Source of the DNA: a virus
Strand: one strand, 5' to 3'
DNA: 43,727 nucleotides
Virus record (IMG/VR): IMGVR_UViG_3300021437_000005
Part shown: piece by piece, positions 1 to 43,727 of the stretch
Position numbering within the stretch: position 1 is the first letter of the stretch
How the letters are laid out: each line of letters begins with the position of its first letter
Translations under genes and position numbers: made by a program
Notes under the pieces: model-generated
Databases searched by the model: none
What the model was told of the DNA's origin: nothing
Seen by the model: the letters and a program-made list of their open reading frames with translations, nothing else

Positions 1-127
1 ATCATCAAAGAAGAAGTGACGAAGCAGCTTGAACGGGAGAAGGTCTCGCCATCGGCTATTGAGCAGCGCCCATCAGACTTTGAAGCCTTCTCGAAGGCCG
101 TAGACAAGCCTGCTGCACAGCCGGAAC
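1..127. repeat. Terminal overlap, identical to 43601-43727 (circular closure or assembly overlap)
   Basis: Base-by-base comparison of the first and last 127 nt shows no mismatch. Unique length is 43,600 bp. Confidence 0.95.
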
Positions 128-3100
128 AGGCGGTGACGGGGGGGACGGGTGGAGGACCAGAACAGGCCGTGGCTGGTGGGATCGCCAAAGAGCCATGGCA
201 GATGACGCGGGAAGAATTTAACGCTATAAAGGAACGGTATCGCTCTCTTTACCATCAATGGATAGATGCTGAGATAGCGTTAACTGATGCGCTTGAAGGT
301 GTAGGCCCTGGCCGCACCGGATTTGCACCAACTGCGAGTAAGGCTCAAGAAATTATTAATAATATACGAAAAAAACTTCCGAGTTGGGTCACGTTTGAAG
401 AAGGATTCGACTATGACGCCTACCTTAAAAAAGCGTTGGCGGCTGGTGAGCCTGTTCAGGTACCATCATCCTCGGAATTACCGCCTGTGACGGGTAATCA
501 AAGTCAATTCTATCACGGCTCTGGAACCGTTGGGCTGACTAAAGATCGGCTCAATCCAGACCTGACCAGGATCGAAGGACTCTTCGGGGAAGGTATCTAT
601 CTAACTGACAACCCGGAGATTGCGGCTGGTTATGCGAAGGTGCGTAGCACACGCACCAAGACGCCAGTGGTATACAACGCCCAAGTAGATCCAACGGCCA
701 AAATTCTCAACCTCGAAGAGCCCGTAATTCCGGAATTCGCTGGTACGTTAAAAAAAGCGGCTTTTAGTGTTGACCGTATGGCGGGATCTGATGAAGTTCT
801 GAAAGCTGTGAAAAAGGCTATAGCAACTCCAGGTTCGACCAATGAACAGGTATATGTAGCCTTCTCTAGGGCCATCGAAGAAGTTTCTCACGCTGAGCAA
901 ATACCGATAAGTGAACTTTCAGAGATATTCCAAATCCTGAGAGATGATCTCAAGGAATTCGGGTACGACGCACTTTCTTATACTGGGGGCAAACGAACAG
1001 GAAAGCTTCCACACCGGGCAGTGGTCGTCATTAATCCAGATATTATCACTCAGTTTGATCCGACCGTTAGTTCCGTTAAACCTCCCGTTGGCGTACAACC
1101 ACGCCTCCTTGATACGCAGGCCACGATGCCACCGACGCCGCTCCAGCCAAAGGCGCCGCAAGTGGAGCATGGGGAGTTGTTGGCAGGGATGCGACCGATT
1201 GAACCGCCTCCGCCGGAGTTGCCGTTCAGCGGCACCAAGGAGATGCGTGCTGGCCTGCCAGTACCCGAGACGGTCACACCAGCCGAGGTCTCTTTGGGAC
1301 GTTTCAGGACCTTTCTGGCCGAACAGCGAAAGAAATTACCGTCAGAATTACGGGTCTTGAGGGAGGCACCGAACTCGTCAGTGATGAGTGCTATTGATGG
1401 AGCGGCGGCGGATGTCACGAATGGTGCGGAGTCCATCGTGACCCAACCGTGGGCCAAAGCCTTGCAGCGCCGAACCCCGCAAGAGTTCCAACAGCTTGAA
1501 TCGCAGGCGGTTAGGACATGGGAGCAGGGAGGAAAGACCCCAGAGGCGATGGAACAAGCCATTTCCGCATTGCCACCAGATATACAAGAGATGGTTCGGT
1601 ATCGGGCCTCTCGGTTGCCGATTGAACAGGCAGCAAGACGCACGTTGGGACTCCCGGAGATCCCGGAGACGCCAGGACCATATTTTCCTCGGCTCAGCGA
1701 ACATGGCCTCCAGGACATTCAACGACTTGGGGCGGGTGGTCGTCTGGCCGGTGAACTCCAAACGACCCTCCGATCTTTTCAGCAGTCCCGTTCATTCCCA
1801 ACCATGGCAGAGGGACAGGCGCAGGGCATGATCTATGCGGATCCGCGCAAAGCCTGGGCGTTACGCGAATGGTACTCTCTGAAACTCGAAGCGACGGCCA
1901 AACTCATCACAAACCTTGAAGACAAGGGCGTACTCTTTCGGACCGCTGAGGCGGCAAAGGCCGCATCGCCGACCGGCAAAGCGTTCGGCATCGAAGGACT
2001 CCCAGGGTCTCCCGAATGGTTTGCCTCCACGTCGGCTGAGCGAGAGTTCATCTTGCAGAATCTCTCTAGGGCCAACCGTGGGGCGTTGGGGTCCGCGATT
2101 ACGCTTGGTAATCAGATTTTCCGCAATCCCAACCTGTTTAACCCCTTTCCACACTTCACCAAGAACATGCTCTATAAGTTTGGATTGAGCGGAGGCAGTC
2201 CAACAAAAGTCGTCCCGGCGATGCTTGAATATGAACGCGGCTCTTCGCCAATGGTAGCGCGGTTCAAGCAGGTGTTCCCAGCCGCCGATACCGCGCAATC
2301 CGCTGGTCAACTCTTCGATCCCTTTCTGAACCCAACTGGCGTCACCCATAAAGTGCTTCGCGCCGTTGGCGAGATCAATAAACCGAGCAGCACGGCGATC
2401 TTTGCCCATCTCGACCCGGCCCTGCGATATGCCCGATGGAAACAGTACATCGCCAAAGGGATGACCGATCAGGAAGCCGCGAATCATGTACAAGTGGATT
2501 TGATTCGCTATGGGACCAGGTCTGATGCCGTGGATTTCTGGAAATCAATCCCACTGAATTTCTTTGTGCCATGGCGCACCGGTACGGTGACAAGTGTGGT
2601 AAAGCAAATGACATCTCACCCGCTTCGTGCGGCGGCACTGATAGCCGGGATTGATTACCTGCGAGAGGCGAGATACCGGCAGAGTGGACGGTGGACCCAT
2701 CTGCCGATTGACTACTTGGAGTCCCCGATCGCCCAAGTGGTCGCGCATCCCACGCCGAAAACGGCTGCTGCCATCGCGGCGACCACGATTGCCTTCGGAC
2801 CCGGTGGGGCCTCAACAGCCTCGACGCTGCGAGATGCGATTGACGACATCCGTGGCGGGGATGAATGGGGGCGGATACGCAATATGTTCTGGGGAATCTC
2901 GCAGCTCTATGAAATCCCAAAGGAATGGCAAGCGTTTGAAAAGACCGGTGACAGCAGCCACTTAGTCAACATCCTCAGTTCGTCGCTTGTGGCCGAACAT
3001 TCGGCGTTGAACTATTCGCCAAGGAGACTTGCCGCGTATCTCCCAGAATATCTCCCAGGGATGCAGAAGAGTGAACTCGTTCAAGCCGCTGAGGCATTAC

Positions 3101-3195
3101 AGACCCAGCAGCAACGCCGAGGCGAGGCCATAAGAGCCCGACAGGCGCTCCGTCCGGCGCGGACCATTGAGGAGAAATTACAAATAGCCCCATAA
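1..3195 (+). CDS. C-terminal part of the same giant protein (1,589 aa in total) carrying an ART-like domain
   Basis: Continues the 42026 frame and ends at TAA 3193-3195. Motifs FYHGSG, GIYLTDNPEIAAGYA and GYDALSYTGG...AVVVINPDII are present. It sits after the internal-virion genes and before the lysis genes. Confidence 0.8.
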   Translation: MIKEEVTKQLEREKVSPSAIEQRPSDFEAFSKAVDKPAAQPEQAVTGGTGGGPEQAVAGGIAKEPWQMTREEFNAIKERYRSLYHQWIDAEIALTDALEGVGPGRTGFAPTASKAQEIINNIRKKLPSWVTFEEGFDYDAYLKKALAAGEPVQVPSSSELPPVTGNQSQFYHGSGTVGLTKDRLNPDLTRIEGLFGEGIYLTDNPEIAAGYAKVRSTRTKTPVVYNAQVDPTAKILNLEEPVIPEFAGTLKKAAFSVDRMAGSDEVLKAVKKAIATPGSTNEQVYVAFSRAIEEVSHAEQIPISELSEIFQILRDDLKEFGYDALSYTGGKRTGKLPHRAVVVINPDIITQFDPTVSSVKPPVGVQPRLLDTQATMPPTPLQPKAPQVEHGELLAGMRPIEPPPPELPFSGTKEMRAGLPVPETVTPAEVSLGRFRTFLAEQRKKLPSELRVLREAPNSSVMSAIDGAAADVTNGAESIVTQPWAKALQRRTPQEFQQLESQAVRTWEQGGKTPEAMEQAISALPPDIQEMVRYRASRLPIEQAARRTLGLPEIPETPGPYFPRLSEHGLQDIQRLGAGGRLAGELQTTLRSFQQSRSFPTMAEGQAQGMIYADPRKAWALREWYSLKLEATAKLITNLEDKGVLFRTAEAAKAASPTGKAFGIEGLPGSPEWFASTSAEREFILQNLSRANRGALGSAITLGNQIFRNPNLFNPFPHFTKNMLYKFGLSGGSPTKVVPAMLEYERGSSPMVARFKQVFPAADTAQSAGQLFDPFLNPTGVTHKVLRAVGEINKPSSTAIFAHLDPALRYARWKQYIAKGMTDQEAANHVQVDLIRYGTRSDAVDFWKSIPLNFFVPWRTGTVTSVVKQMTSHPLRAAALIAGIDYLREARYRQSGRWTHLPIDYLESPIAQVVAHPTPKTAAAIAATTIAFGPGGASTASTLRDAIDDIRGGDEWGRIRNMFWGISQLYEIPKEWQAFEKTGDSSHLVNILSSSLVAEHSALNYSPRRLAAYLPEYLPGMQKSELVQAAEALQTQQQRRGEAIRARQALRPARTIEEKLQIAP

Positions 3196-3204
3196 GGAGA
3201 TCCC

Positions 3205-3447
3205 GTGACCGACCACGATCTTGACACCTGCCCGCTCGCCCCTGAAATCCAACGATGCGACCGTGAACGCGGCGTGATTATGGCGACGCTCACCTCGATC
3301 AGTGCGACCTTGGCACGCCTGGAGCCGATGATCCAGGCGCACGAAAACAACATGAATCGACAAATCGGGTATCAAGGGTTGATTGGGGTGATCTCAGGGA
3401 TGATCGGGGCGCTCATCGGGTTTGTGGCGTCACGGCTCTGGCGATGA
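3205..3447 (+). CDS. Small C-terminally anchored membrane protein, lysis accessory candidate (holin/antiholin-like)
   Basis: GTG start 5 nt after AGGAG. 80 aa with a single hydrophobic helix LIGVISGMIGALIGFVASRLW at the C-terminus. Directly upstream of the endolysin. Confidence 0.55.
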   Translation: MTDHDLDTCPLAPEIQRCDRERGVIMATLTSISATLARLEPMIQAHENNMNRQIGYQGLIGVISGMIGALIGFVASRLWR

Positions 3448-3561
3448 CCGCCTACCCACCCGTCAGCCGTGAGCATCCCTGCGACGTGAAGACGTGTACT
3501 CCGCTGAAGAAGCCAGTATGGCCGCTGCCGTGTGCCACCTGTCAGCCGATAAAGGAGGCCG

Positions 3562-4068
3562 ATGCCACTTGATCCGAAATCAGAAACGATGTTGCTGAAG
3601 GTCCATCCCGGCCTCGCTCGCCGTGTGCGGGCGCTCTTGATGGCCTGCGAAGCGAAGGGCTGTCCGATGCGCGTCACACAGGGGCTGCGGGATGGGATGG
3701 AACAGACGGCGTTGTATGCGCAAGGACGACAGGGGCTTGATGAGGTCAACCGCCTACGGAAGTTGGCGTGTCTCCCACCCATTACCAGTGAGCAGAATCA
3801 ATGTCCCGTCACGGATGCGCGGCTTGGGTTTAGCTACCACAACTACGGCTTGGCGATTGATCTGTGCTACGCGACAGGCGATCCCTACCACGAAGACGGG
3901 CATAGTCTGACCTGGGAGCAGATCGGGGCGATGATCGAGGCGAATGGATTGGTCTGGGGTGGTCGGTTCAGAATGCGCCCAGACCGTCCACATTGCCAGT
4001 GGTCAGACGGCGTGTCGTTAGCGGATCTACGAGCGGGCAAGGTGCCGCCGATGGAAGCCACGCCATGA
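3562..4068 (+). CDS. Endolysin, peptidase M15 (VanY-like / L-Ala-D-Glu peptidase type)
   Basis: AAAGGAGG RBS. Zinc-ligand motifs SYHNYGLAID (H-x6-D) and DRPHCQW. Confidence 0.85.
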   Translation: MPLDPKSETMLLKVHPGLARRVRALLMACEAKGCPMRVTQGLRDGMEQTALYAQGRQGLDEVNRLRKLACLPPITSEQNQCPVTDARLGFSYHNYGLAIDLCYATGDPYHEDGHSLTWEQIGAMIEANGLVWGGRFRMRPDRPHCQWSDGVSLADLRAGKVPPMEATP

Positions 4069-4841
4069 AAACGATATACCTGATTGGTATAGGATTTTCC
4101 CTCCTCATCCTCGCCGGCTGTGGTGGCGGCCACGTCAGCCACCCCACACCCCCGATCAGCGAGATCGGGATGAACTTGACCATCGACGACCTGATTAACC
4201 GCGTGGATGGACCACAACGGGCGGCCACGTACCTGGATGAGATTGAGAAGGCGGGCTACCGCAAGTCGGTCCGCATGGTCTATGACCGCTCCTGGGGGCC
4301 GAAGTTGTCTACGTGGCTACCTGATCTATTGCGACGCAAGGGGTTTCAATTACTTGCTATCCTCAGCCCCGGCAAGCACGTGGACGGGATGGTACTCATC
4401 GACGCCGACCGTCAGTGGTTCCAAACTGGACTCCCGCCGATTGTGGACATCCTGGAAGGGGTCGAGTTTGCCAACGAACAATGGAACTCGGTTGGGCGTG
4501 GGGACAACTACATCTTCCCGCCGGCGGACTTCGCGGCCTGGCATAATGCGCTTCTGCCAGTTGTGCGACAGATCGCCCCTCTTGTGACGATTGCCGAGGG
4601 CGACATTGGAGGTGGTGGCGGTGACGACTGGTGGAACCAGGTGCGGGCAGTCGGTATCACCAATGTCGGGGCGCTCTCGGAACACCTGTACGGCCATAGT
4701 CTCACATCATCAGACCTGCCGATCTGGATCACGGAAGCGGGATCCGTGGCGGATTGTTACCCGACCCTGCCATGCTGGTTGTACACGTGGAATGAGGCTT
4801 CGAAGTGGGCGAAGCGGCCTGGCGGCGGAATTTTGCCCTGA
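4065..4841 (+). CDS. Lipoprotein with clan GH-A (TIM-barrel) glycoside hydrolase signature
   Basis: ATG overlaps the endolysin stop (ATGA). MKTIYLIGIGFSLLILAGC is a signal peptide plus lipobox. FANEQW (Asn-Glu), EHLY (His-x-Tyr) and IWITEAG (Glu nucleophile) occur in the canonical order. Confidence 0.75.
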   Translation: MKTIYLIGIGFSLLILAGCGGGHVSHPTPPISEIGMNLTIDDLINRVDGPQRAATYLDEIEKAGYRKSVRMVYDRSWGPKLSTWLPDLLRRKGFQLLAILSPGKHVDGMVLIDADRQWFQTGLPPIVDILEGVEFANEQWNSVGRGDNYIFPPADFAAWHNALLPVVRQIAPLVTIAEGDIGGGGGDDWWNQVRAVGITNVGALSEHLYGHSLTSSDLPIWITEAGSVADCYPTLPCWLYTWNEASKWAKRPGGGILP

Positions 4842-4899
4842 TGTACGGCCCCTGCCGAGCCAAGACGCCCTACGGCCCCTGTCCTGGCCGGGCGCAGTC

Positions 4900-5079
4900 A
4901 TGGGAGGTACGATACTGTTACTGGCACGCGATCAGAGGATGGCTGAGCCGATGGCTGGCGAGCTAGACGGGTATACGCTGCTCCACATCCTGGGCGTGGG
5001 TGGCGTGACGGCAATAGCGTTGGGTATTGTATACGGGATTGTCAACATGATTGAGTGGATTGTCAACGGAAGGGGGTGA
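4900..5079 (+). CDS. Small membrane protein (one TM); start uncertain (ATG 4900, 4939 or 4951)
   Basis: Hydrophobic helix LLHILGVGGVTAIALGIVYGIV. Lies between the lipoprotein and the 2-TM gene. No clear RBS. Confidence 0.45.
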   Translation: MGGTILLLARDQRMAEPMAGELDGYTLLHILGVGGVTAIALGIVYGIVNMIEWIVNGRG

Positions 5080-5083
5080 TAAC

Positions 5084-5266
5084 ATGAACTTCAAAAGCTT
5101 GCAACCGATCCTCGTCACCGTGGTAGTGGGCCTGATCGGCGCCTTTACGCCGCAGGTGACGGCGTGGGTGTCCGCACATCCCGATACAGCGGTGACGCTG
5201 GGGACGATCGTCGCGGCGGTCCTGCACGCCTTGCAGTCGCCGGTCAACACGACCACACCGTCCTAA
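5084..5266 (+). CDS. Two-TM small membrane protein, holin candidate
   Basis: GGAAGGGGG RBS then ATG 5084. 60 aa with two hydrophobic segments, ILVTVVVGLIGAF and VTLGTIVAAVLHAL. Confidence 0.6.
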   Translation: MNFKSLQPILVTVVVGLIGAFTPQVTAWVSAHPDTAVTLGTIVAAVLHALQSPVNTTTPS

Positions 5267-5378
5267 TCGTGCGAGGCCGATTGGCGGTTCTAGCCCGCCT
5301 TGGCTACTACGGGAGCGAGCAATGAAACATATCCTACCCGGACAGAAGATTGTGCCCTGCAAGCAACAAAGATAAGAC

Positions 5379-5819
5379 GTGGCTAGTTTAAACACAAAAT
5401 TTAATAGCATAAAACAGGACTGGGAAACTCCATTAGAATTATTCAACCCTCTCAATGCTGAATTTAACTTTACATTAGATGTTTGCGCGACCTCCGCAAA
5501 CGCTAAGGTTTCGACATTTTATTCAGAGCATGATAATGGACTAACAAAAAACTGGAGCGGTACATGCTGGATGAACCCGCCATTTAACCAAGTCGGTAGA
5601 TGGGTTCAAAAAGCCTATTCTGAGAGCTTGAAAGGTGCAACGGTTGTATGTTTGTTGCCTTCTCGAACAAACACAAACTGGTGGCACGATTACTGTTTAA
5701 AGGGACAAATTCGATTTATTAGAGGGCGACCACGTTTTAATGGTGCAACACATGGCCTTCCACAGCCACTAAGTATCGTTATATTTAATCCATATTTTAA
5801 GGGAGCACAACATGATTGA
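5379..5819 (+). CDS. Phage Dam-family N6-adenine DNA methyltransferase
   Basis: DWETPLELF, FTLDVCAT, NPPF (motif IV) and LLPSRTNTNWWH. The segment is visibly AT-richer than its flanks. Confidence 0.85.
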   Translation: MASLNTKFNSIKQDWETPLELFNPLNAEFNFTLDVCATSANAKVSTFYSEHDNGLTKNWSGTCWMNPPFNQVGRWVQKAYSESLKGATVVCLLPSRTNTNWWHDYCLKGQIRFIRGRPRFNGATHGLPQPLSIVIFNPYFKGAQHD

Positions 5820-6141
5820 TCTTGCAGCAATGGGCGCCTTGATGCCCGCGATCACGGCGGGGCTCGAACTCGCCAACGCGGGAGTGAAGAAAGTGCAAGC
5901 GGCGGGGGAATTGAACGTGTATACGGATCGGGCGAAGGCGTTTGCGGACCTGTTCGACGCGGATCTGGAAGTCAAACAGGCCGCCTATGCTACCATTTTC
6001 TCCGACATCCAGATGCTCTGCGCCAAGCATGGCATCACGCCAAGCGCCCCCTATTGGGATGAGGCCAAGCAGCAGGGGAGTCCATGCTTGAGCATCCCGA
6101 TAGCGACGCTGATGGCGCTCATGGATTGTGCGAGCCGATGA
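5812..6141 (+). CDS. Hypothetical protein (weak i-spanin-like candidate)
   Basis: GGAG RBS, 8-nt overlap with the methylase gene. 109 aa with mildly hydrophobic ends and a helical middle. Confidence 0.55.
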   Translation: MIDLAAMGALMPAITAGLELANAGVKKVQAAGELNVYTDRAKAFADLFDADLEVKQAAYATIFSDIQMLCAKHGITPSAPYWDEAKQQGSPCLSIPIATLMALMDCASR

Positions 6142-6149
6142 GGAGTGCG

Positions 6150-6281
6150 ATGAGTAAGGCAATCGCGATAATCGGGATCAGTTTCATGGTCGCCTCATGC
6201 GTTCACAAGCCACCCGCGCTCACGATGCCCCATGTCCCGACGGTCACGACGGATCAGCGTCCGGGGGCCTTAACGAGATAG
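6150..6281 (+). CDS. 43-aa Pro-rich lipoprotein (o-spanin-like or Cor/Llp-like exclusion candidate)
   Basis: GAGGAG RBS. MSKAIAIIGISFMVASC has a lipobox V-A-S-C. The mature part is Pro/Thr-rich. Confidence 0.55.
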   Translation: MSKAIAIIGISFMVASCVHKPPALTMPHVPTVTTDQRPGALTR

Positions 6282-6375
6282 TATTGGTCGGGGGCGTGGG
6301 TACGGTCTCTGCTCCCCAATCTGTCGCCCAATGGCGACTGTCCTCCACGTAGACGACGCCCCGACCATTCTCCCT

Positions 6376-6792
6376 TTAGTCTCGCCCGCACGCCCAACGG
6401 ATCGTGATCCATACATCCGAGACCGGCACAACGCTGGCGTTAAAGGCCGACACGCTCATCTCGGTCGGTGTCAGGCCACCCAGCGCCGTGACCAAGCCAG
6501 GAGCCGCCCCGCTATCTGGCCCTCCGTTACTGACCCGCAGATGGTCAATCGTCTGCGGACGGCAATGCTCGCCGTGCAGCCCAGCGGGAAGTGTGAGGAC
6601 GGCGGACCGGACCTCTCCGGGTGAGAGGTCTCCGAGCGAGACTGAGCAATCACCCTGCCGATAGGCGATCTCTTGCGCCCCGAAGATCGGACGCGGGTTC
6701 GGCGGACAGTCGGCGGTGACCTGCGCTGAGGCCACTCCGAACGACAAAAGACCAACGACTACAGCCGCAAATGCTATTTTCAAGCACCACAT
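6376..6792 (-). CDS. Secreted Cys-containing protein of unknown function (moron-like)
   Basis: AGGAGG RBS before ATG 6792. MWCLKIAFAAVVVGLLSFGVASA-Q is a signal peptide. It is the only minus-strand gene here and is convergent with the late unit. Confidence 0.7.
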   Translation of the reverse strand: MWCLKIAFAAVVVGLLSFGVASAQVTADCPPNPRPIFGAQEIAYRQGDCSVSLGDLSPGEVRSAVLTLPAGLHGEHCRPQTIDHLRVSNGGPDSGAAPGLVTALGGLTPTEMSVSAFNASVVPVSDVWITIRWACGRD

Positions 6793-6945
6793 GGTTCCCC
6801 TCCTATGATGAGCTGCGCCAAATGAGCGGTTGACGTGAGAGGCGAACGGGAACCATGACGAAGGCGGCGCTCGATCAAGGGGTGTCAGAATCCCCCGGAT
6901 TATAAACTCCCCCCGAAAATCCCTATTGACGACGCTGTAACTATG

Positions 6946-7312: not shown

Positions 7313-7921
7313 TTATGGTTGGCTAGAGGTTAGTAGTTCCACATGATTTAACGCCTCGTTGCCCCATGTTGCCCAGCCGAGCCTATTGCGGCGGGCGAAA
7401 AGTTCCAAATATGGGCCTGGACTCACTGATTCCACCATATCTATGAAGGCTTCGGGTTTCGCAGAGTGTCGTCCTCGTTTCCAATTCCACCATGTTGACG
7501 GCTCTCGGCGGAGCGGTCGAAGGCCACCACGATGTCCGAAAATGACGTGCTCGGTTGTGATTCCGAAAGCGTCACCGAGCCCAATGCCGATTGGATTCTT
7601 TGCCCATGTCAGCAGTACAGATGGCTTGAAGCCCCACGCTTCGACAACTTCGTATGCCGGTCGAACTAGAATATTGGTTGTCCAGAGGTATAAGTGCGCG
7701 GCCTCGTCTGCGAGTTCTCCGACTGGTAGGGCTTTGATTTCCGCTATCGTCATTGTCGGATATTTGAGCTTCAAATGTCCACTGCCGCCATATCCGAACC
7801 CTGCTGGCCCGGTTGTGGTTCGCCACGGTGGGTCAGCTACGATAGTCTTGAACTTTAACTGTGCCCGCAAATCACCGGATGCAGCGATGGCACCAAGTTC
7901 GTCGTCGGTCAAGTAGCTCAT
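7313..7921 (-). CDS. MT-A70 family N6-adenine DNA methyltransferase
   Basis: ADPPW, YPTM, LYLWTTN, HSAKP and ELFARR..GWATWGNE. ATG 7921 overlaps the upstream stop (ATGA). Confidence 0.85.
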   Translation of the reverse strand: MSYLTDDELGAIAASGDLRAQLKFKTIVADPPWRTTTGPAGFGYGGSGHLKLKYPTMTIAEIKALPVGELADEAAHLYLWTTNILVRPAYEVVEAWGFKPSVLLTWAKNPIGIGLGDAFGITTEHVIFGHRGGLRPLRREPSTWWNWKRGRHSAKPEAFIDMVESVSPGPYLELFARRNRLGWATWGNEALNHVELLTSSQP

Positions 7922-8322
7922 TTCGCTCCATCCACCGCCAGCCAGTAGATGAGCCGAAACGGTTCCGCTCGCAGCATCTCCCGTGACGCTTTGCATCCCT
8001 GTCGAGCTCGCTTCATCAGTGCCGCCTGTTGGACCTGCCGGTCGGCGGGGTCGTCACAGGGGAAATACGCATGATGCTGCGAGGGGCGCGTCGGGCTTGG
8101 CGCGGACTCCCGCATGGCTTCGACGTTGTGTCGGTCTGGTAGTCGCCCCTTCGCTCGTTCCGCCACAAACCGTTGCCAGTCCTCCGCCTTGACCATGTAG
8201 GTCCACTGTTGTCGGCCCTTGCGGGCCTTCTGCGCCGGGAGTCTACCGGCCCATATCCATTTGCGGATACTATGCGATACCACGCCGATTTGTTGCGCAC
8301 ACTCCTGGACGGTCAGGGTCAT
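7918..8322 (-). CDS. Excisionase/MerR-type HTH DNA-binding protein
   Basis: AGGAGG RBS. N-terminus LTVQECAQQIGVVSHSIRKWIWAGRLPA. Confidence 0.7.
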   Translation of the reverse strand: MTLTVQECAQQIGVVSHSIRKWIWAGRLPAQKARKGRQQWTYMVKAEDWQRFVAERAKGRLPDRHNVEAMRESAPSPTRPSQHHAYFPCDDPADRQVQQAALMKRARQGCKASREMLRAEPFRLIYWLAVDGAK

Positions 8323-15057: not shown

Positions 15058-15419
15058 GCCATCACTACGAGACGGTCAGGCGCATCTACGAACCGCAGGA
15101 GTGCAATAGCGGGGCGGCGAGAGCGGGAGCGAAACCCGGCAACCACCACAAGGACAAGGGAAATCGGCGCGAGCGCCAAGCGAAGGCCGTCCTGGAGGCG
15201 GACGGCTGGCTTGTGGTAAAGGCTGGCGGATCATTGGGCCTGTTCGACCTGGTGGCGCTGCATGTTGACTATGGGGTGCTGCTCGTGCAGGTTAAAAGCA
15301 ATCGCCCGCCGGCACGGGCTGAAATGGATGCCCTGCATGCCTTCCAGTGTCATTCCTCATGGCGCAAGGAATTGTGGGTCTACGTGGATCGGGAAGGGTG
15401 GAAGGTGAAGGGGCTATGA
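15054..15419 (+). CDS. Hjc-like PD-(D/E)xK nuclease (Holliday junction resolvase candidate)
   Basis: ERQAKAVLEADGW..., GLFDLVAL and LLVQVKS give the E...D...(E/Q)-V-K spacing. Confidence 0.65.
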   Translation: MSHHYETVRRIYEPQECNSGAARAGAKPGNHHKDKGNRRERQAKAVLEADGWLVVKAGGSLGLFDLVALHVDYGVLLVQVKSNRPPARAEMDALHAFQCHSSWRKELWVYVDREGWKVKGL

Positions 15420-15649
15420 GAGTGACCGCCATTCGATCCATCCGGGCGTTTTGCGTGGAGTGCATCGGTGGGGCGGTGTATGTCGAGGATTGCACGGCAA
15501 TCAAATGTCAGCTCTATCCGTTCAGGATGGGCAAAAACCCGAATATCTCAGCAGAAACAAAGGAGAAATCTCGCATACGGATGTTAGACCGATTAGCCAC
15601 ACAGGTAGATCAGGCGTCAGTTAAAGGAAACAAACATAATGAAGGCTGA
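15416..15649 (+). CDS. Small Cys-rich protein
   Basis: ATGA overlap with the upstream gene. FCVECIGG...CTAIKCQLYPFRMGKNP. Confidence 0.6.
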   Translation: MRVTAIRSIRAFCVECIGGAVYVEDCTAIKCQLYPFRMGKNPNISAETKEKSRIRMLDRLATQVDQASVKGNKHNEG

Positions 15650-16112
15650 AAATAGTACACCTAAATGCCAGAGACCGGGTTGCGAATTAGACCTGCCAGC
15701 GGGTAGGCAACTCTGGTGCTCCCGAAAGTGCTATGACTTAGTAGAAGGTCGCAAGCGGATCGAGCACAATAAGAACAATGGAACCTCACCACGAAGACTG
15801 GGGGCTATTTCGGAGTGTGTTGTCGCTGCTGATCTGCTTCGAAAAGGATTTGACGTATTCCAAGCCGTAAGCGATCAGGCTTCGTGCGATTTTATTGCGC
15901 TAAAAGAAGGCGTAATGTTGCGAATAGAGGTAAAAACGCTACAGAAAAGCGCCCACGGTAGGGATATATTTCCTGTTCGGTTTTTGCAAAGTGGCCGCTT
16001 CGATGTGTTGGCCTTTGTTGCTCGGGACGGCTCTAGTATTGTCTATCGACCCGATCCGACCGTTTTGACGCTCAAAACGCCACCTACGTTGGCTTCTCAA
16101 AAAAATAAATAA
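15639..16112 (+). CDS. Second PD-(D/E)xK nuclease with N-terminal zinc ribbon
   Basis: CQRPGC...CSRKC, then ISECVVAADLLRKGFDV, CDFIAL and LRIEVKT. The segment is visibly AT-richer. Confidence 0.6.
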   Translation: MKAENSTPKCQRPGCELDLPAGRQLWCSRKCYDLVEGRKRIEHNKNNGTSPRRLGAISECVVAADLLRKGFDVFQAVSDQASCDFIALKEGVMLRIEVKTLQKSAHGRDIFPVRFLQSGRFDVLAFVARDGSSIVYRPDPTVLTLKTPPTLASQKNK

Positions 16113-16141
16113 CCCCGAAGGGGATCGAACCAGCTTCGGGG
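16113..16141. terminator. Bidirectional rho-independent terminator between convergent operons
   Basis: 8-bp GC stem CCCCGAAG/CTTCGGGG with a 13-nt loop. On the minus strand it is followed by TTATTTATTTTTTT, on the plus strand by GTATTT. Confidence 0.75.
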
Positions 16142-16178
16142 GTATTTGAACGCTGGGACTTTTGAGCCGATAAGCGGC

Positions 16179-16310
16179 TTACGTGTCGTCCTGCGATCCG
16201 ACGCGAGCAATCACGCCCAACGCCAGCGCGGTCAACAAGCCAAGGCCGCCCCACGCGCCCAAGATCAGCGCCCAGGTGCGCCAGTGGCCGAACCAGGGAA
16301 GGGCGCTCAT
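16179..16310 (-). CDS. 43-aa hydrophobic membrane peptide
   Basis: AGAGGTGACGCC then ATG. WALILGAWGGLGLLTALALGVIA. Overlaps the RHH gene stop by 4 nt. Confidence 0.5.
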   Translation of the reverse strand: MSALPWFGHWRTWALILGAWGGLGLLTALALGVIARVGSQDDT

Positions 16311-19788: not shown

Positions 19789-20110
19789 TAGATATGTCAA
19801 CAGAGATCGCTGTAAGTCTATGATTCTACTATGCTGCTAGAGATACGTCAGAGAAGATGCATTATGTCACCCTGGGACTTGGGTGAGTGGGTAATGGGCA
19901 ACCCCCCCTGGGGGGGGCGAAACTTAGGGTACCTTCTCCCAGAGCACTCCATCTAAAAGGTCATACCTCAGCGCTTATTAGTCGTGCAAACAAACGGCCC
20001 TGAGTGTAGGCATGGAATGAATCTTGCAGAACCAAACACAGGCACGTTTCTTGGGTATAGGGGGGGTATATTAAATACTTCCTTACAGCGTGGGGGGGAA
20101 AAGGGAAATC

Positions 20111-20647
20111 ATGGGACGGCTTCTTCAGGGGACATGGAATACACGATCGGCGTCCTGGTCGAAAGCAAGACGAAAAAAATCCTACGCTCCGAAAGGAGCA
20201 GCAAATACACGTGAACGTCTCTTAAGGGGACGTGCCGATTATATGAAACAACAACCCACTGAAGCTGAAGAGCGAATCTTCCACGCACTGAAATATCTCC
20301 GTATTCCATTCATGCCTCAAGTTGTTATTGGTCGATATATCGTTGATTTTCTTCTCACCAACCGGAATATCGTGCTTGAAATAGACGGCTCTTCCCATAA
20401 GCAGAAACGGGCCTACGATCAAAGCCGGGATGACTTCTTAACACGGTTAGGATGGCAAGTGATCAGGGTTTCGAATGAACACGCCACGATCGAATGGGTG
20501 ACAGCCCACGTTGTCTCACTGCCTGTGACCGATCAATGCGTGATCATCCAACGATTATCCGATGCCCGAGCAATCGAACGAGATCGAATACGACGTAGGA
20601 ATCATTCACAGACGTTGCCGGATACTCGACACCTACGCTCCGCCTAG
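20111..20647 (+). CDS. DUF559 / Vsr-like PD-(D/E)xK endonuclease (start uncertain: 20090, 20111 or 20243)
   Basis: TEAEERIFHALKYLRIPFMPQVVIGRYIVDFLL...IVLEIDGSSH...D..RD.FL..LGWQVIRVSN. Confidence 0.75.
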   Translation: MGRLLQGTWNTRSASWSKARRKKSYAPKGAANTRERLLRGRADYMKQQPTEAEERIFHALKYLRIPFMPQVVIGRYIVDFLLTNRNIVLEIDGSSHKQKRAYDQSRDDFLTRLGWQVIRVSNEHATIEWVTAHVVSLPVTDQCVIIQRLSDARAIERDRIRRRNHSQTLPDTRHLRSA

Positions 20648-20692
20648 CACAGTGACGGAGCGAGGAGTAGACCATCACAGCAAGGAGAACAC

Positions 20693-31899: not shown

Positions 31900-32366
31900 T
31901 GCCACTGTTTAATTTCGGGCCTCCCTCGACGGGCGACCAATGCACCAAATCAAGTCAGGTGAGTACACTGACCAACGGGATGACCCTGTTTACCATTGCC
32001 AACGGGCCGATTGAGATTGTGGAGTTGCAATCAGTCTGCCTGACGGCGAATGATGTGACGGCGTCGACATTGCAATACAGTTCCAGTCCGACCGTTGGGA
32101 GCGCGAAGACACTGTCTGCGGCCTCAGCGACGTTAGCGAGTGCCACGGCCGGGACTACGATTACCCTGAATCAGACCTCGCTCGCCACAGCGCCAGATAT
32201 TGTGACGGCTGCCAACGGGGGCGTTGCCATTGGTGCCAACGTGGGGAATAAGATGATTGTCCAGGCGGGGACACTAACCGCCGTCATTGGAGTCGGATCA
32301 ACGACTGGCACGTGGGCGCATTATCTTCGGTGGAGGCCGTTACTGAATACTGTTACGGTGGTGTGA
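31899..32366 (+). CDS. Hypothetical structural protein
   Basis: ACGGAGG RBS, TAATG coupling. 155 aa. Confidence 0.6.
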   Translation: MPLFNFGPPSTGDQCTKSSQVSTLTNGMTLFTIANGPIEIVELQSVCLTANDVTASTLQYSSSPTVGSAKTLSAASATLASATAGTTITLNQTSLATAPDIVTAANGGVAIGANVGNKMIVQAGTLTAVIGVGSTTGTWAHYLRWRPLLNTVTVV

Positions 32367-35823: not shown

Positions 35824-35832
35824 GAGTGTAGG

Positions 35833-38382: not shown

Positions 38383-38414
38383 ACGAGAGAGTCAGAGAGA
38401 AGGGAGGGACTGAC

Positions 38415-40687: not shown

Positions 40688-40702
40688 CAGGGAGTGACCG
40701 TC

Positions 40703-42025: not shown

Positions 42026-43727
42026 ATGCCACTCACAGCGAAAGCCCTCCTTGATTATATGGCGCTTCCTCCTGACGAGCAGGCCAATCTACAGGCTGAT
42101 CCGACGGTAGGACCTCAACTACAGAGCTTTAGTGCGCTTCCACGTGAGGAGCAAACCAAAGTTCTTGACCATCTCAGCGCTGGAAATCCTGCGGTTGCGT
42201 CACCGCAATCCTCCGTCGATCACGTCCCTGGGGCGTTGGCTCGTCTTGCCGAAGGACTCCCTGGTCTGGCCTATAATTTTACGGTGGGCCCCCTTGTGGA
42301 GGCTGGTCGTATCCTCAGGGAGGGTCGGACTTCCGAACAGGCCGCCGCTTTCGAGGCTATGACGCCAGAGCAGCGGGCGCTCTATAAGGAATCAGGGCAA
42401 ACCTATCGCAATCCGATGGCGCCGTCCTCCTATGAACCGCTCATGGGACCATTGCTGGGTGGTGCAATGATGGCGGCATTCATGGGAAAGTCTCCGTCAT
42501 TGACTATGCGGAGCGGTCCGGCAGAATCACGTGCCTTCCCTGGTGGGCGGCGAATCCCAGGGTTGGAACTGACCCCAAGCGAGCAATGGGACAGCGAATG
42601 GGAACGTATGCCAATGGAGGAGCGCCAGAGGTTGATTAACCAAGGGCCTCCAGCGTCTGTCCCGGTGTCTACGCCAAAAGAACAGGCGGCGAGGACGGCA
42701 AAACTCGCCATAGAGCGCAAACAATGGGAAGCCGAACAGTCGGCACTTGCCCAGGAACGGGCGGATCAGCAAGCGGCGCAGCGGCTCGAACGCGATCGAG
42801 CCGGCACAAGGGTGTCTCCGCAAGCCGACATGCCACCAGTAGAGGTTGGCCGGACACTCACCCCGCAAGAGATAAGAAGTGCCGCAGAGATGCGGCTACC
42901 CGTGCCGCCCTCACCGACCATTCCACCGGAGTTGGCCGCTGTCACGACTGGCGAGGCTAAAGCGTTCCTCCGTCCGTCGTCTGCAGAGGGGACAGTGCCG
43001 ACCGTTGGCGAGCAAGCCCTACAGGGCGTGAATCTCAAACAATACGCCTTGCAGGCTGGAGTGGGCTACTACAAGAGCCGAATCACTGGGGCCGAGGTCG
43101 TCTTCGACCCGAAGCAAGTGACGCAGAGTCAACTGAAAGCGATGGACAAACAGGGGATTCTTCCTGATGTGGTGAACGGTTCAGGCACGTCACCGAAACC
43201 AGCGGAACCGACCACAGCGGTGACGGCGAGGACGCCAGAGGGCACAGAGGTCCGCACGGTACTGACCGATACACCGGAGGCCACAGCCTCAGCGGTACAA
43301 GCACAGTCTCCTTCGTTACAGACAGAAGTGAAGCCGTCGGCAGAAGCGGTTCCGCAAGTGCTTGCTGATCGGATGCAGGCCATTCGGCGTGAGGCGGAAG
43401 GCGCTACCGGGCATCCGTTCGGGAAGCAGTACGGGTCGGTGGAAACGGAGATGGGTCCACAATCGGTAGCAATAGGCGCGGCCAAGTCGTTCAGGGAACA
43501 ATTTGCAGACCTCTATCCAGAGCTTCGGAATCTGCCGAATGTCGGACCAAAGGAGATTGCCGAGGCGATCAAGAAAGATAAGGACAACAAGCTCTATACC
43601 ATCATCAAAGAAGAAGTGACGAAGCAGCTTGAACGGGAGAAGGTCTCGCCATCGGCTATTGAGCAGCGCCCATCAGACTTTGAAGCCTTCTCGAAGGCCG
43701 TAGACAAGCCTGCTGCACAGCCGGAAC
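42026..43727 (+). CDS. N-terminal part of the giant wrap-around virion (polyvalent/ejection-type) protein
   Basis: ATG at 42026 lies 1 nt after the stop of the upstream gene. I translated this frame by hand and found no stop to the window end. The frame is the same as ORF 16..3195 once 43601 is equated with position 1. Confidence 0.8.
   Translation, partial: MPLTAKALLDYMALPPDEQANLQADPTVGPQLQSFSALPREEQTKVLDHLSAGNPAVASPQSSVDHVPGALARLAEGLPGLAYNFTVGPLVEAGRILREGRTSEQAAAFEAMTPEQRALYKESGQTYRNPMAPSSYEPLMGPLLGGAMMAAFMGKSPSLTMRSGPAESRAFPGGRRIPGLELTPSEQWDSEWERMPMEERQRLINQGPPASVPVSTPKEQAARTAKLAIERKQWEAEQSALAQERADQQAAQRLERDRAGTRVSPQADMPPVEVGRTLTPQEIRSAAEMRLPVPPSPTIPPELAAVTTGEAKAFLRPSSAEGTVPTVGEQALQGVNLKQYALQAGVGYYKSRITGAEVVFDPKQVTQSQLKAMDKQGILPDVVNGSGTSPKPAEPTTAVTARTPEGTEVRTVLTDTPEATASAVQAQSPSLQTEVKPSAEAVPQVLADRMQAIRREAEGATGHPFGKQYGSVETEMGPQSVAIGAAKSFREQFADLYPELRNLPNVGPKEIAEAIKKDKDNKLYTIIKEEVTKQLEREKVSPSAIEQRPSDFEAFSKAVDKPAAQPE
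43601..43727. repeat. Second copy of the 127-bp terminal overlap
   Basis: Identical to bases 1-127. Confidence 0.95.

What the first reader, a model, noticed from the sequence alone, without database searches (positions are those of the whole stretch)
502..1056. ART-like (H-Y type) domain embedded in the giant virion protein, in an AT-rich patch
Residues around FYHGSG, GIYLTDNPEIAAGYA and GYDALSYTGG...HRAVVVINPDII resemble the NAD-binding His and Tyr motifs of PARP/diphtheria-type ADP-ribosyltransferases. They also resemble the ART-PolyVal family described in polyvalent phage and conjugative-element proteins. The DNA encoding this region (roughly 300-1080) is visibly more AT-rich than the rest of the ORF, which suggests domain acquisition. 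A virion-delivered ART could modify host RNAP, translation or defence proteins at injection, as T4 Alt does. I could not identify the third catalytic residue by eye.
Basis: partly seen in the sequence, partly recalled or inferred. Interest (0 to 1): 0.7.

Follow-up and report, generated by a model that had tools for sequence, protein, structure and literature searches.

The report
ART-like cargo domain in phage protein
A 1589-residue late protein of an uncultured 43.6-kb phage carries an inserted, lower-GC domain of the NAD-using ADP-ribosyltransferase fold; it is a divergent relative of the "polyvalent-protein" ARTs, with a histidine where relatives have the catalytic acid, and was probably acquired as an injected anti-host effector.

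Summary
Window 505-1056 encodes a discrete, confidently folded domain (AF2 pLDDT 93.8). It has 508 relatives at 50%-identity clustering, nearly all inside 1000-6700-aa proteins.

Every test points to the ADP-ribosyltransferase (ART) superfamily:
- Sub-threshold Pfam hits to ART-PolyVal, DUF3990 and PARP only.
- hhalign gives 94% to the ART-PolyVal prototype and 98% to jumbo-phage ART-PolyVal-like proteins.
- A PDB profile search returns only PARPs, aligned at the His and both Tyr residues.
- Foldseek finds named ART-PolyVal proteins and the cyanophage A4 ejection protein gp27.

It is a variant, not a clean member. It has a 76-residue four-helix insert and a Gly-rich basic loop. An invariant His (H863) sits where relatives carry Glu/Asp.

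The AT-rich patch is real: window 208-1110 has GC3 0.41 against 0.61 elsewhere. None of 18 orthologues of the conserved C-terminal backbone has the module, so acquisition is supported.

Virion delivery and NAD-dependent activity remain inferred. Verdict: a new variant of a known, computationally predicted but uncharacterised kind. Interest is moderate.

The parts
42026..43600 (+). 5' part of the 1589-aa ORF (residues 1-525). The ORF crosses the artificial end of the circular assembly; 43601-43727 repeats 1-127.
   Evidence: Terminal overlap of 127 nt and open frame. Joined translation of 1589 aa. Identical 1589-aa gene call in ENA and Logan assemblies.
1..3195 (+). 3' part of the same ORF (residues 526-1589, stop at 3193-3195).
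505..1056 (+). ART-fold domain (full-protein residues 694-877). Element order is beta1, beta2, helix, beta3, four-helix insert, beta4, beta5, beta6.
   Evidence: AF2 pLDDT 93.8 and secondary structure. 508 homologues. ART-family profile hits. Foldseek.
514..516 (+). It is the NAD-binding His of H-Y ARTs.
   Evidence: Conserved in 159 of 162 domains. Aligned to the FHGS His of tankyrase-2.
598..600 (+).
   Evidence: Conserved in 162 of 162 domains. Aligned to the GIYFA Tyr of tankyrase-2.
631..633 (+). Tyr736, the second tyrosine, on the helix after beta2 ('IAxGYA').
   Evidence: Conserved in 161 of 162 domains. Aligned to the SNQY Tyr of tankyrase-2.
730..957 (+). Four-helix insert (residues 769-844) between the beta3 hairpin and beta4. 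It has the lowest GC3 of the ORF (about 0.34).
   Evidence: Helices at 87-104, 108-118, 124-141 and 146-162 of the 196-aa segment. It is much shorter (about 25 aa) in the ART-PolyVal prototype. GC3.
979..1011 (+). beta4 end plus the Gly-rich basic loop 'Y-T-G-G-K-R-T-G-K-L-P'. Position 852 is Tyr here but His in 151 of 162 relatives.
   Evidence: Conservation counts. hhalign shows the loop as a 5-residue insertion relative to jumbo-phage homologues.
1012..1014 (+). His863, the first residue of beta5 and the proposed third active-site position.
   Evidence: Conserved in 161 of 162 domains. It is the first residue of strand 181-186. It aligns with the Glu of fHe-Yen9-03 g454 by MAFFT and hhalign. 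Other relatives have Asp/Glu within one residue of it.
208..1110 (+). Low-GC3 segment (ORF codons 596-896) that encloses the domain.
   Evidence: GC3 0.41 against 0.61; permutation 0 of 20000. Composition profile.
42917..43600 (+). Start of the ~620-residue region (residues ~298-919) that is absent from the closest orthologue P0175. It continues at 1-1182.
   Evidence: phmmer: window residues 191-297 match P0175 210-318, and 920-1585 match P0175 337-1007.
1183..3180 (+). Conserved all-alpha C-terminal backbone module (residues ~920-1585), shared with 18 proteins that lack the ART module.
   Evidence: AF2 pLDDT 79, all helices. No PDB fold match.
3562..4068 (+). Downstream M15 peptidase (endolysin-like). 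It marks the end of the structural module. The same arrangement occurs in the ART-less relative.
   Evidence: Pfam Peptidase_M15_4 and VanY. Synteny in L011 and L012.

Best explanation
Window 505-1056 encodes a genuine ADP-ribosyltransferase-superfamily domain of the H-Y type. Its nearest described relatives are the ART-PolyVal domains of phage and conjugative-element polyvalent proteins.

The domain sits inside a ~620-residue, partly low-GC region. That region was inserted, in this phage lineage only, into the variable N-terminal half of a large all-alpha protein. This protein is the last gene of the head-tail module, just before the lysis genes.

Most likely mechanism (inferred):
1. The protein is made late and packaged.
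2. It is expelled with the DNA.
3. The domain binds NAD+ in the cleft lined by His697, Tyr725 and Tyr736.
4. It transfers ADP-ribose to a host target.

His863 at the start of beta5 occupies the place of the usual catalytic Glu/Asp. The conserved basic Gly-rich loop before it (GGxRTGK) takes the place of the target-recognition loop.

Shown: the homology, the fold, residue conservation, and lineage-specific presence. Inferred: virion packaging, NAD use, transferase chemistry and the target.
For: A discrete mobile module. Only residues ~685-875 are shared with 149 other giant proteins. There are 508 representatives.

ART homology:
- Pfam's only consistent hits are three ART-clan families. ART-PolyVal matches 74 of 74 members (best E 1.7e-8), DUF3990 matches 70 of 74, and PARP matches 40 of 74.
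- hhalign gives 94.4% to the ART-PolyVal prototype in the Roseovarius Plymouth podovirus 1 vRNAP.
- hhalign gives 98.1% (E 1e-13) over 157 columns, including beta4-beta6, to fHe-Yen9-03 g454 and XaC1_303.
- With the insert removed, all 33 PDB sequence hits are PARPs, aligned at the His and both Tyr residues.

Fold. AF2 gives pLDDT 93.8 with the ART strand order. Foldseek finds 46 viral hits at E<1e-3, many named ART-PolyVal. PDB hits are A4 gp27 at 9e-8, then RES toxins (probability 0.96) and tankyrase.

Selection on the site. H697, Y725, Y736 and H863 are conserved in 159-162 of 162 domains that are only 27-48% identical overall.

Cargo context in relatives. Relatives carry LPD38, PBECR3, SLT, M15_3 and methyltransferase domains. 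A related domain sits in gp27 of the solved cyanophage A4 pre-ejectosome (PMC12002296).

Acquisition. There is a GC3 change-point. None of 18 backbone orthologues has the module, and neither do two syntenic loci searched in six frames. Other low-GC patches of this genome also hold accessory genes.
Against: - The window's own domain scores 17-21 bits against ART-PolyVal, DUF3990 and PARP. All are below their gathering thresholds of 31.2, 32.2 and 26.7.
- No acidic or Gln residue sits at the third catalytic position. ART-PolyVal was defined as H-Y-D (PMC5512222).
- The His863 equivalence rests on sequence alignments that have low confidence in that stretch. Relatives place their acid within +/-1 residue. 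No structural superposition could be made.
- Foldseek matches to cellular ARTs are weak (E 0.03-0.4, TM 0.4-0.5).
- Nothing shows that this protein is in the virion. PHROGs, Pfam and NCBIfam find nothing in the rest of it. Its C-terminal module has no PDB fold match.
- No member of this family, nor of ART-PolyVal, was found to be experimentally characterised.
Confidence: 0.6

Rival explanations
1. The domain is an NAD+ glycohydrolase or phosphorylase rather than a transferase. On entry it consumes NAD+ or an NAD-derived defence signal instead of tagging a macromolecule.
For: The best non-phage structural matches are RES-type NAD-degrading toxins (9r35 and 6gw6, probability 0.84-0.96) and NatT. 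The missing catalytic Glu and the phosphate-friendly GGxRTGK loop would suit hydrolysis or phosphorolysis. Established knowledge: some ART-fold toxins are NADases.
Against: Sequence profiles point to the H-Y transferase clade (PARP, ART-PolyVal), not to RES. Beta1 carries His, not the Arg of RES. Only a few packaged copies per virion would be a poor way to deplete a millimolar metabolite.
Confidence: 0.12
2. The domain ADP-ribosylates a nucleic-acid or phosphate acceptor (host or phage DNA/RNA ends, DarT- or Tpt1-like), not a protein.
For: Two histidines and a conserved basic loop (R in 109 of 162, K/N, Gly-rich) replace the usual acidic third residue and target-recognition loop. Relatives sit beside nucleic-acid-directed domains such as PBECR3 nuclease, methyltransferases and vRNAP. 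In A4, gp27 contacts packaged DNA (PMC12002296).
Against: There is no profile or fold similarity to DarT or Tpt1/KptA above noise. The A4 DNA contacts were not assigned to this domain. The idea is purely inferential.
Confidence: 0.12
3. The domain is a catalytically dead ART fold kept as a structural brick of an internal capsid or ejection complex.
For: The canonical acid is lost. The related domain of A4 gp27 is an ordered part of the pre-ejectosome (PMC12002296). The window protein has Tyr where 93% of relatives have His852.
Against: His, Tyr, Tyr and His are near-invariant across 162 sequences of 27-48% identity, whereas surface and insert residues drift. That is the pattern of an active site. 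The 18 orthologous backbone proteins do without the module, so it is not needed for assembly.
Confidence: 0.12
4. The motif resemblance is chance and the AT-rich patch is ordinary compositional noise.
For: The window's own Pfam scores are sub-threshold. The genome has a dozen other low-GC patches.
Against: There are 508 homologues. hhalign gives 94-98%. PDB hits are PARPs only. The fold is high-confidence with ART-PolyVal structural neighbours. The GC3 permutation gave 0 of 20000.
Confidence: 0.01

Closest known systems
ART-PolyVal (Pfam PF18760; Tox-ART-HYD2 clade; Iyer et al. 2017, PMC5512222), prototype in the Roseovarius Plymouth podovirus 1 vRNAP
   Same: - Same superfamily and the same N-terminal signature: YHG[ST]G, then G-x-[YF]-x-T-[DN], then A-x-x-YA.
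- hhalign gives 94% to the prototype and 98% to jumbo-phage members.
- Same habitat: huge multi-domain phage, prophage or conjugative-element proteins with LPD38, SLT, M15, PBECR and methyltransferase domains.
- Same predicted role as an injected effector.
   Different: - The window domain is below the Pfam threshold: 18 bits against 31.2. The prototype scores 43.
- His, not Asp, at the beta5 position.
- A 76-residue four-helix insert, against about 25 residues in the prototype.
- An extra conserved 'H-x-G-G-x-R-T-G-K-x-P' loop.
- The window's host protein has no other recognisable polyvalent-protein domain.
Cyanopodophage ejection or 'tail' proteins with an ART-like domain: Anabaena phage A4/A-4L gp27 (PDB 9K3A chain B), Pf-WMP3 gp26, Pbo-yong3 UVD33202.1 ('mono-ADP-ribosyltransferase-like protein')
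   Same: - Best structural match in the PDB (E 9e-8, TM 0.62) and among the best in BFVD.
- The domain also has a helical insert and lies in a 1400-1700-aa late protein of a ~41-43 kb phage.
- gp27 is experimentally located in the pre-ejectosome (PMC12002296).
   Different: - Only 15-25% identity.
- A4 gp27 keeps His and the first Tyr, but has Asn for the second Tyr and 'TDGDTT' (Asp) in place of the H-x-GG...PH motif.
- No similarity outside the domain. The A4 paper does not discuss the domain as an ART.
PARP catalytic domain (PF00644), e.g. tankyrase-1/2, PARP14, PARP16
   Same: These are the only solved proteins found by the family profile. The alignment runs through the NAD-binding His, the GxYF/L Tyr and the following helix Tyr. 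H-Y-Phi PARPs show that a missing Glu is compatible with mono-ADP-ribosylation (PMC7955679 table; established knowledge).
   Different: E-values are only 0.007-0.6. The C-terminal half is not alignable by sequence. There is no donor-loop or PARP regulatory elements, and His stands in place of Glu.
DUF3990 (PF13151, ART clan)
   Same: Best single Pfam hit for the window sequence (E 3e-4 to 1e-3, N-terminal 70 residues). 70 of 74 relatives also hit it.
   Different: Below threshold (19-21 bits against 32.2). Only half the profile is matched. It is a family of unknown function, so it adds no mechanism.
Phage T4 Alt (head-packaged, injected ART)
   Same: A functional analogy: an ART carried in the virion and delivered with the DNA to reprogramme host proteins (PMC5512222, PMC9503650).
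   Different: Different clade (R-S-E triad, Alt/VIP2). No sequence or fold hit was obtained here. Alt is a separate protein, not a module inside a giant protein.

Membership tests
ADP-ribosyltransferase superfamily (Pfam clan ADP-ribosyl), H-Y-[EDQ] clade | Split beta-sheet core with strand order beta1, beta2, helix, beta3 ... beta4, beta5, beta6 | tested here: met
   The AF2 model (pLDDT 93.8) has exactly this order of elements. Foldseek neighbours are ART-PolyVal proteins, RES toxins and PARPs. Coordinates could not be inspected, so the cleft geometry itself was not examined.
ADP-ribosyltransferase superfamily (Pfam clan ADP-ribosyl), H-Y-[EDQ] clade | His in beta1 (HG[ST]) | tested here: met
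   His697 is conserved in 159 of 162 domains and aligned to the tankyrase FHGS His.
ADP-ribosyltransferase superfamily (Pfam clan ADP-ribosyl), H-Y-[EDQ] clade | Tyr in beta2 (and second Tyr on the following helix) | tested here: met
   Tyr725 (162 of 162) and Tyr736 (161 of 162) are aligned to the GIYFA and SNQY tyrosines of tankyrase-2.
ADP-ribosyltransferase superfamily (Pfam clan ADP-ribosyl), H-Y-[EDQ] clade | Glu/Asp/Gln at the start of beta5 | tested here: not met
   The position is an invariant His (His863, 161 of 162). The neighbouring residues are Pro and a variable Q/R/N/K.
ADP-ribosyltransferase superfamily (Pfam clan ADP-ribosyl), H-Y-[EDQ] clade | Binds NAD+ and transfers or releases ADP-ribose | not testable with these tools
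   Needs biochemistry.
ART-PolyVal (PF18760) | Score at or above Pfam's gathering threshold (31.2 bits) | tested here: not met
   The window domain scores 13.8-18.4 bits. The prototype scores 36.5-42.9 bits. All 74 relatives hit the model, with a best E of 1.7e-8.
ART-PolyVal (PF18760) | Active-site configuration H (strand 1), Y (strand 2), D (strand 5) (PMC5512222) | tested here: not met
   H and Y are present. The strand-5 position is His, not Asp.
ART-PolyVal (PF18760) | Profile-profile homology to bona fide members | tested here: met
   hhalign gives 94.4% to the RPP1 vRNAP domain over the N-terminal half. It gives 98.1%, E 1e-13, full length, to fHe-Yen9-03 g454 and XaC1_303. BFVD labels g454 as ART-PolyVal-like.
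ART-PolyVal (PF18760) | Embedded in a polyvalent protein (several unrelated effector or LPD domains in one polypeptide) | tested here: inconclusive
   This is true of relatives, which carry LPD38, PBECR3, SLT, M15_3 and methyltransferase domains. The window's 1589-aa protein has no other recognisable domain.
DUF3990 (PF13151) | Score at or above the gathering threshold (32.2 bits) | tested here: not met
   15.8-21 bits, covering profile positions 3-71 of 152 only.
PARP catalytic domain (PF00644) | Score at or above the gathering threshold (26.7 bits), and the H-Y-E triad | tested here: not met
   11.6-16.5 bits. There is no Glu at beta5.
T4 Alt / VIP2 clade (R-S-E ARTs) | Arg-Ser-Glu active site | tested here: not met
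   The sequence has His and Tyr at the beta1 and beta2 positions. There was no Alt-family hit in Pfam or PHROGs.
RES-domain NAD-degrading toxins | Conserved Arg, Glu and Ser; RES Pfam match | tested here: not met
   There is fold resemblance only (probability 0.84-0.96, TM 0.4-0.5). There is no RES profile hit. Beta1 carries His.
Podovirus ejection (pre-ejectosome) proteins, as A4 gp27 | Physically inside the capsid and expelled at infection | not testable with these tools
   Only position in the genome supports it: the gene follows the tail-fibre genes and precedes the M15 lysis gene.
Podovirus ejection (pre-ejectosome) proteins, as A4 gp27 | Homology of the protein backbone to a known ejection protein | tested here: not met
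   Only the ART-like domain matches gp27. The C-terminal module has no PDB fold match (best E 1.2) and no PHROG.

The most novel reading that the evidence does not exclude
The 'H-Y-Y ... [H/Y]-x-G-G-x-R-T-G-K-x-P-H' proteins form an undescribed branch of the ART fold. This branch has at least 508 clusters at 50% identity and is absent from Pfam, NCBIfam and PHROGs at trusted thresholds. In it a histidine replaces the catalytic acid and a basic glycine-rich loop replaces the target-recognition loop. That would give a chemistry different from classical protein ADP-ribosylation. Examples are transfer to a phosphate or nucleic-acid end, use of NAD-capped RNA, or cleavage of an NAD-derived immune signal. 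The enzyme would be delivered by phages at the moment of DNA entry.
Probability: 0.2. Interest if true: 0.75.

Novelty: new variant of a known kind. Interest (0 to 1): 0.45.

Why it matters
ART domains are predicted to be the commonest macromolecule-modifying modules in injected phage "polyvalent" proteins. Yet I found no experimental study of any of them.

This locus offers a clean natural experiment. One phage lineage has the module spliced into a backbone that 18 relatives carry without it. The effect of the cargo on host takeover or defence evasion could therefore be tested by deletion or transplantation.

The invariant His in place of the catalytic acid marks a large, unannotated subfamily. 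Its substrate and chemistry may differ from known ARTs. Its link to the solved A4 pre-ejectosome gives a structural handle on how such cargo is packaged.

Tried and rejected
- Word-indexed homologue search with the single domain returned nothing, although homologues exist. That tool missed even the identical protein.
- tblastn of the whole protein against cultured phages at 1e-5 returned nothing.
- PHROGs gave nothing for the domain or for either flank. NCBIfam gave nothing.
- A single-sequence PDB search gave only noise.
- I tried to place the third catalytic residue through Pfam profile coordinates. This failed because even the prototype matches only profile positions 5-70.
- hhalign in global mode against the RPP1 prototype gave a zero-confidence, probably shifted C-terminal alignment. 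MAFFT --add with RPP1 was likewise ambiguous. I therefore relied on the jumbo-phage homologues.
- The C-terminal backbone had no close relatives in IMG/VR or JGI metagenome contigs by pattern scan. Its AF2 model had no PDB fold match. Its orthologues had no Pfam domains.
- No flanking direct repeats mark the inserted or low-GC segment.
A narrower alignment found only three loci.
- Rejected: a Walker-A reading of GGKRTGK, because there is no Ser/Thr after the Lys and the position is variable.
- Rejected: membership of the T4 Alt clade, because the triad is different.
Full report
1. What is in the sequence

The window is one unit of a circular assembly. Its last 127 nt repeat its first 127 nt, so the unit is 43,600 bp.

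It is a tailed-phage genome with these identified genes:
- terminase at 20777-22432;
- portal at 22494-24884 (PHROG portal);
- major head protein at 27617-28537;
- tail and tail-fibre genes at 32312-37086;
- a RecT/PD-(D/E)XK recombination pair and two DNA methyltransferases on the other arm;
- an M15 peptidase at 3562-4068.

The ORF holding the finding does not start in the window's first bases. It starts at ATG 42026, immediately after the stop of a 443-aa ORF. It runs across the assembly junction and ends at 3195, giving 1589 aa. The identical 1589-aa gene call exists in at least six public assemblies. It is the last gene of the head-tail block. It follows the tail fibres and three family-less, Q/P/A-rich ORFs, and it precedes small ORFs and the M15 peptidase.

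In full-protein numbering the relevant residues are His697, Tyr725, Tyr736, Tyr852 and His863.

2. Is it more than chance?

Yes. An exhaustive phmmer search of 1.84 billion cluster representatives with residues 659-895 found 508 proteins at E<=1e-3, 127 at E<=1e-10 and 42 at E<=1e-30. Each aligned over the same ~185 residues. Most are proteins of 1000-6700 aa.

When the whole 1589-aa protein is compared with the best 149 of them, only residues ~685-875 are shared. It is therefore a self-contained, mobile module.

An alignment of 74 such modules (A1) gave an AlphaFold2 model with mean pLDDT 93.8 and pTM 0.87. The order of elements is:
- strands at 12-17 and 42-45;
- a helix at 48-58;
- strands at 66-72 and 78-80;
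- four helices spanning 87-162;
- strands at 167-172, 181-186 and 192-195.

3. What fold and family?

Sequence evidence:
- For the window sequence alone, Pfam returns only three ART-clan families, all below threshold and all on the N-terminal His...Tyr half. These are DUF3990 (E about 1e-3), ART-PolyVal (about 6e-3) and PARP (about 2e-2).
- Across the 74 relatives, 74 hit ART-PolyVal (best E 1.7e-8), 70 hit DUF3990 and 40 hit PARP. No other family recurs. In some relatives the ART-PolyVal match spans profile positions 5-132 of 140.
- I fetched the published prototype of ART-PolyVal, the domain in the Roseovarius Plymouth podovirus 1 virion RNA polymerase (PMC5512222). hhalign of A1 against it gives 94.4% probability over the N-terminal half.
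- Against two jumbo-phage proteins, fHe-Yen9-03 g454 and XaC1_303, hhalign gives 98.1% (E 1e-13) over 157 columns. That alignment includes the insert and the C-terminal strands. BFVD labels g454 'ART-PolyVal-like domain-containing protein'.
- A family profile with the helical insert deleted (A2), searched against all PDB sequences, returns 33 hits at E<=1. Every one is a PARP (tankyrase-1/2, PARP14, PARP16). The alignment places His697 on the FHGS histidine, Tyr725 on the GIYFA tyrosine and Tyr736 on the SNQY tyrosine.

Structural evidence:
- Foldseek against BFVD gives 46 hits at E<1e-3. Many are named ART-PolyVal-like, PolyVal ADP-ribosyltransferase or large polyvalent protein. Cyanopodophage proteins (Pf-WMP3 gp26, A-4L 'tail protein') also appear.
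- Against the PDB the only strong hit is chain B of 9K3A (E 9e-8, TM 0.62). Next come ART-fold RES toxins (probability 0.96 and 0.84), NatT and tankyrase-2 (probability about 0.6).

That criterion is not met, so the ART assignment stands.

4. How it differs from the described family

Iyer et al. defined ART-PolyVal by His in strand 1, Tyr in strand 2 and Asp in strand 5 (PMC5512222).

In 162 full-length modules of the present family, the conservation counts are:

| Residue (full-protein numbering) | Count |
|---|---|
| His697 | 159 of 162 |
| Gly698 | 162 of 162 |
| Tyr725 | 162 of 162 |
| Tyr736 | 161 of 162 |
| Position 852 | His in 151, Tyr in 11 (the window has Tyr) |
| Gly854 and Gly855 | 161 of 162 each |
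| His863 | 161 of 162 |

His863 is the first residue of the fifth core strand. Both MAFFT and hhalign align it with the Glu of g454: 'GSGERFIIVYNP' against 'KLPHRAVVVINP'.

Other relatives have an acid within one residue of that column. The prototype has 'LDGEIMVV', A4 gp27 has 'TDGDTTLVINP' and XaC1 has 'GSDSTWVVVYNP'. So the family has replaced the catalytic acid by histidine.

Two further differences:
- It gained a five-residue extension of the preceding loop, giving the signature [H/Y]-x-G-G-x-R-T-G-K-x-P-H.
- It carries a 76-residue four-helix insert. The prototype has about 25 residues there. Inserts of intermediate length occur in the jumbo-phage and cyanophage proteins.

The residue equivalence at beta5 rests on alignments of low local confidence. 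I could not superpose coordinates.

5. Acquisition

A cumulative-deviation analysis of third-position GC puts the low-GC segment at ORF codons 596-896, which is window 208-1110. GC3 is 0.41 there against 0.61 elsewhere in the ORF, and 0 of 20,000 permutations reached this. First- and second-position GC falls much less, so amino-acid composition alone does not explain the dip.

The comparative test is stronger:
- The C-terminal 694 residues have 18 homologues (31-52% identity, 648-1215 aa long). None has the ART module. An unfiltered hmmsearch gave a best E of 0.75.
- The closest homologue, P0175 (1010 aa), matches window residues 191-297 and 920-1585. Only 19 of its residues stand in for the window's ~620.
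- The P0175 gene sits in the same place: last structural gene, then small ORFs, then an M15 peptidase.
- Six-frame searches of 20.6 kb and 10.6 kb around it find no ART module.

The module is therefore a lineage-specific insertion into the variable N-terminal half of a conserved backbone.

The other low-GC patches of this genome also coincide with accessory genes: a Dam methylase, a PDDEXK_5 endonuclease and a DUF559 endonuclease. No flanking repeats mark the junctions.

6. Delivery and mechanism (inferred)

Evidence that such modules travel in the virion is indirect.
- In relatives the module is fused to hallmark polyvalent-protein domains. These are LPD38, PBECR3 nuclease, SLT and M15_3 cell-wall hydrolases and methyltransferases. 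They include 1474-1673-aa LPD38 proteins in Paenibacillus and Cohnella genomes.
- A structurally related domain is residues ~1416-1600 of gp27 of cyanophage A4. gp27 is one of four proteins resolved in the capsid-internal pre-ejectosome (PMC12002296).
- Pbo-yong3 encodes a 1472-aa homologue annotated 'mono-ADP-ribosyltransferase-like protein', next to an RNA polymerase gene.

For the window's own protein only gene position speaks. Its C-terminal module is confidently all-alpha (pLDDT 79) but has no PDB fold match and no family assignment.

The most likely mechanism is packaging and co-injection followed by NAD+-dependent modification of a host target, with His697, Tyr725 and Tyr736 holding NAD+. 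I put this at about 0.6.

The His863 and basic-loop peculiarity leaves room for three alternatives, each at roughly 0.1:
- NAD(+)-derived-signal hydrolysis;
- a phosphate or nucleic-acid acceptor;
- a non-catalytic structural role.

The near-invariance of the four site residues at 27-48% overall identity argues against the structural reading. So does the dispensability of the module in 18 orthologues.

7. Novelty and verdict

The kind, an ART domain in an injected phage polyvalent or ejection protein, was predicted in 2017 and surveyed again in 2022 (PMC5512222, PMC9503650). Annotators have already flagged a cyanophage homologue. No experimental characterisation surfaced in the literature searches.

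Three things are not described:
- this large subfamily with His at the third position, its basic loop and its long helical insert, which escapes Pfam, NCBIfam and PHROGs at trusted thresholds;
- the clear case of module insertion into an otherwise ART-less backbone;
- the recognition that A4 gp27 carries a related domain.

I rate it a new variant of a known kind, of moderate interest (0.45).

Noticed in passing
window 43601-43727 = 1-127: The window's two ends are identical over 127 nt, so it is a circular (or terminally redundant) assembly of 43,600 bp. ORFs that seem to run off either end are one gene. The same ~43.7-kb contig occurs in several public assemblies (ENA ERZ27251983, Logan SRR7106578).
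   Followed up: yes
window 5201-5950 (ORF 5379-5819, +): This is the lowest-GC patch of the genome (down to 0.40, against a 0.567 mean). It encodes a Dam-type N6-adenine DNA methyltransferase (PF05869, E 2e-29), a likely acquired anti-restriction gene. A second methyltransferase (MT-A70) lies at 7313-7996 (-).
   Followed up: partly
window 15371-16200 and 19921-20650: Two further low-GC patches hold small nuclease genes. These are a PDDEXK_5 endonuclease (15639-16112) and a DUF559/MTES_1575-like endonuclease (20090-20647), the latter directly upstream of the terminase gene. In this genome low GC seems to mark accessory, possibly homing-type, genes.
   Followed up: partly
window 121-181: Two tandem 36-nt copies encode PEQAVTGG(TGGG) and PEQAVAGG. 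This is a short Gly-rich peptide repeat just upstream of the point where GC3 drops (about nt 208). It may be a linker at the edge of the acquired segment.
   Followed up: no
window 979-981 (Tyr852): The window's domain has Tyr at a position that is His in 151 of 162 relatives and Tyr in only 11. All other near-invariant residues are kept. The significance for activity is unknown.
   Followed up: partly
window 37696-42025: Four consecutive ORFs (228, 643, 114 and 443 aa) lie between the tail fibres and the giant gene. They are Q/P/A/G-rich and have no Pfam or PHROG match. By position they could be internal or ejection proteins of a short-tailed phage. No tape-measure, sheath or tail-tube gene was recognised.
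   Followed up: partly
window 1183-3180 (residues ~920-1585): The conserved C-terminal module is a large all-alpha domain (AF2 pLDDT 79) with about 58 invariant positions across 19 proteins, for example NPNLxNPxPHxxKNM and IPLNFFVPWRxGT. It has no fold match in the PDB and no family in Pfam, PHROGs or NCBIfam, so it is an undescribed conserved phage protein family.
   Followed up: partly
L016 (Anabaena phage A-4L, KF356198) 1732-6885, gp27 residues ~1416-1600: gp27 is the solved pre-ejectosome protein of cyanophage A4 (PDB 9K3A chain B). It contains an ART-like domain with YHGT, GTYFS, a helical insert and TDGDTTLVINP. The structure paper does not mention this domain as an ART.
   Followed up: partly
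L013 (Cohnella sp. 56) 1426-6447; L014 (Paenibacillus koleovorans) 2005-6429: Bacterial genomes encode 1474-1673-aa proteins with this same His-variant module (40% identity) plus a C-terminal LPD38 domain. The subfamily therefore also occurs in Firmicutes prophages or conjugative elements.
   Followed up: partly
window 33371-34933 (+): This 520-aa ORF in the tail block matches PHROGs annotated 'amidase' (2e-22), 'virion structural protein' and 'internal virion protein', but has no Pfam hit. It may be a virion-associated cell-wall hydrolase or a nozzle-type tail protein.
   Followed up: no
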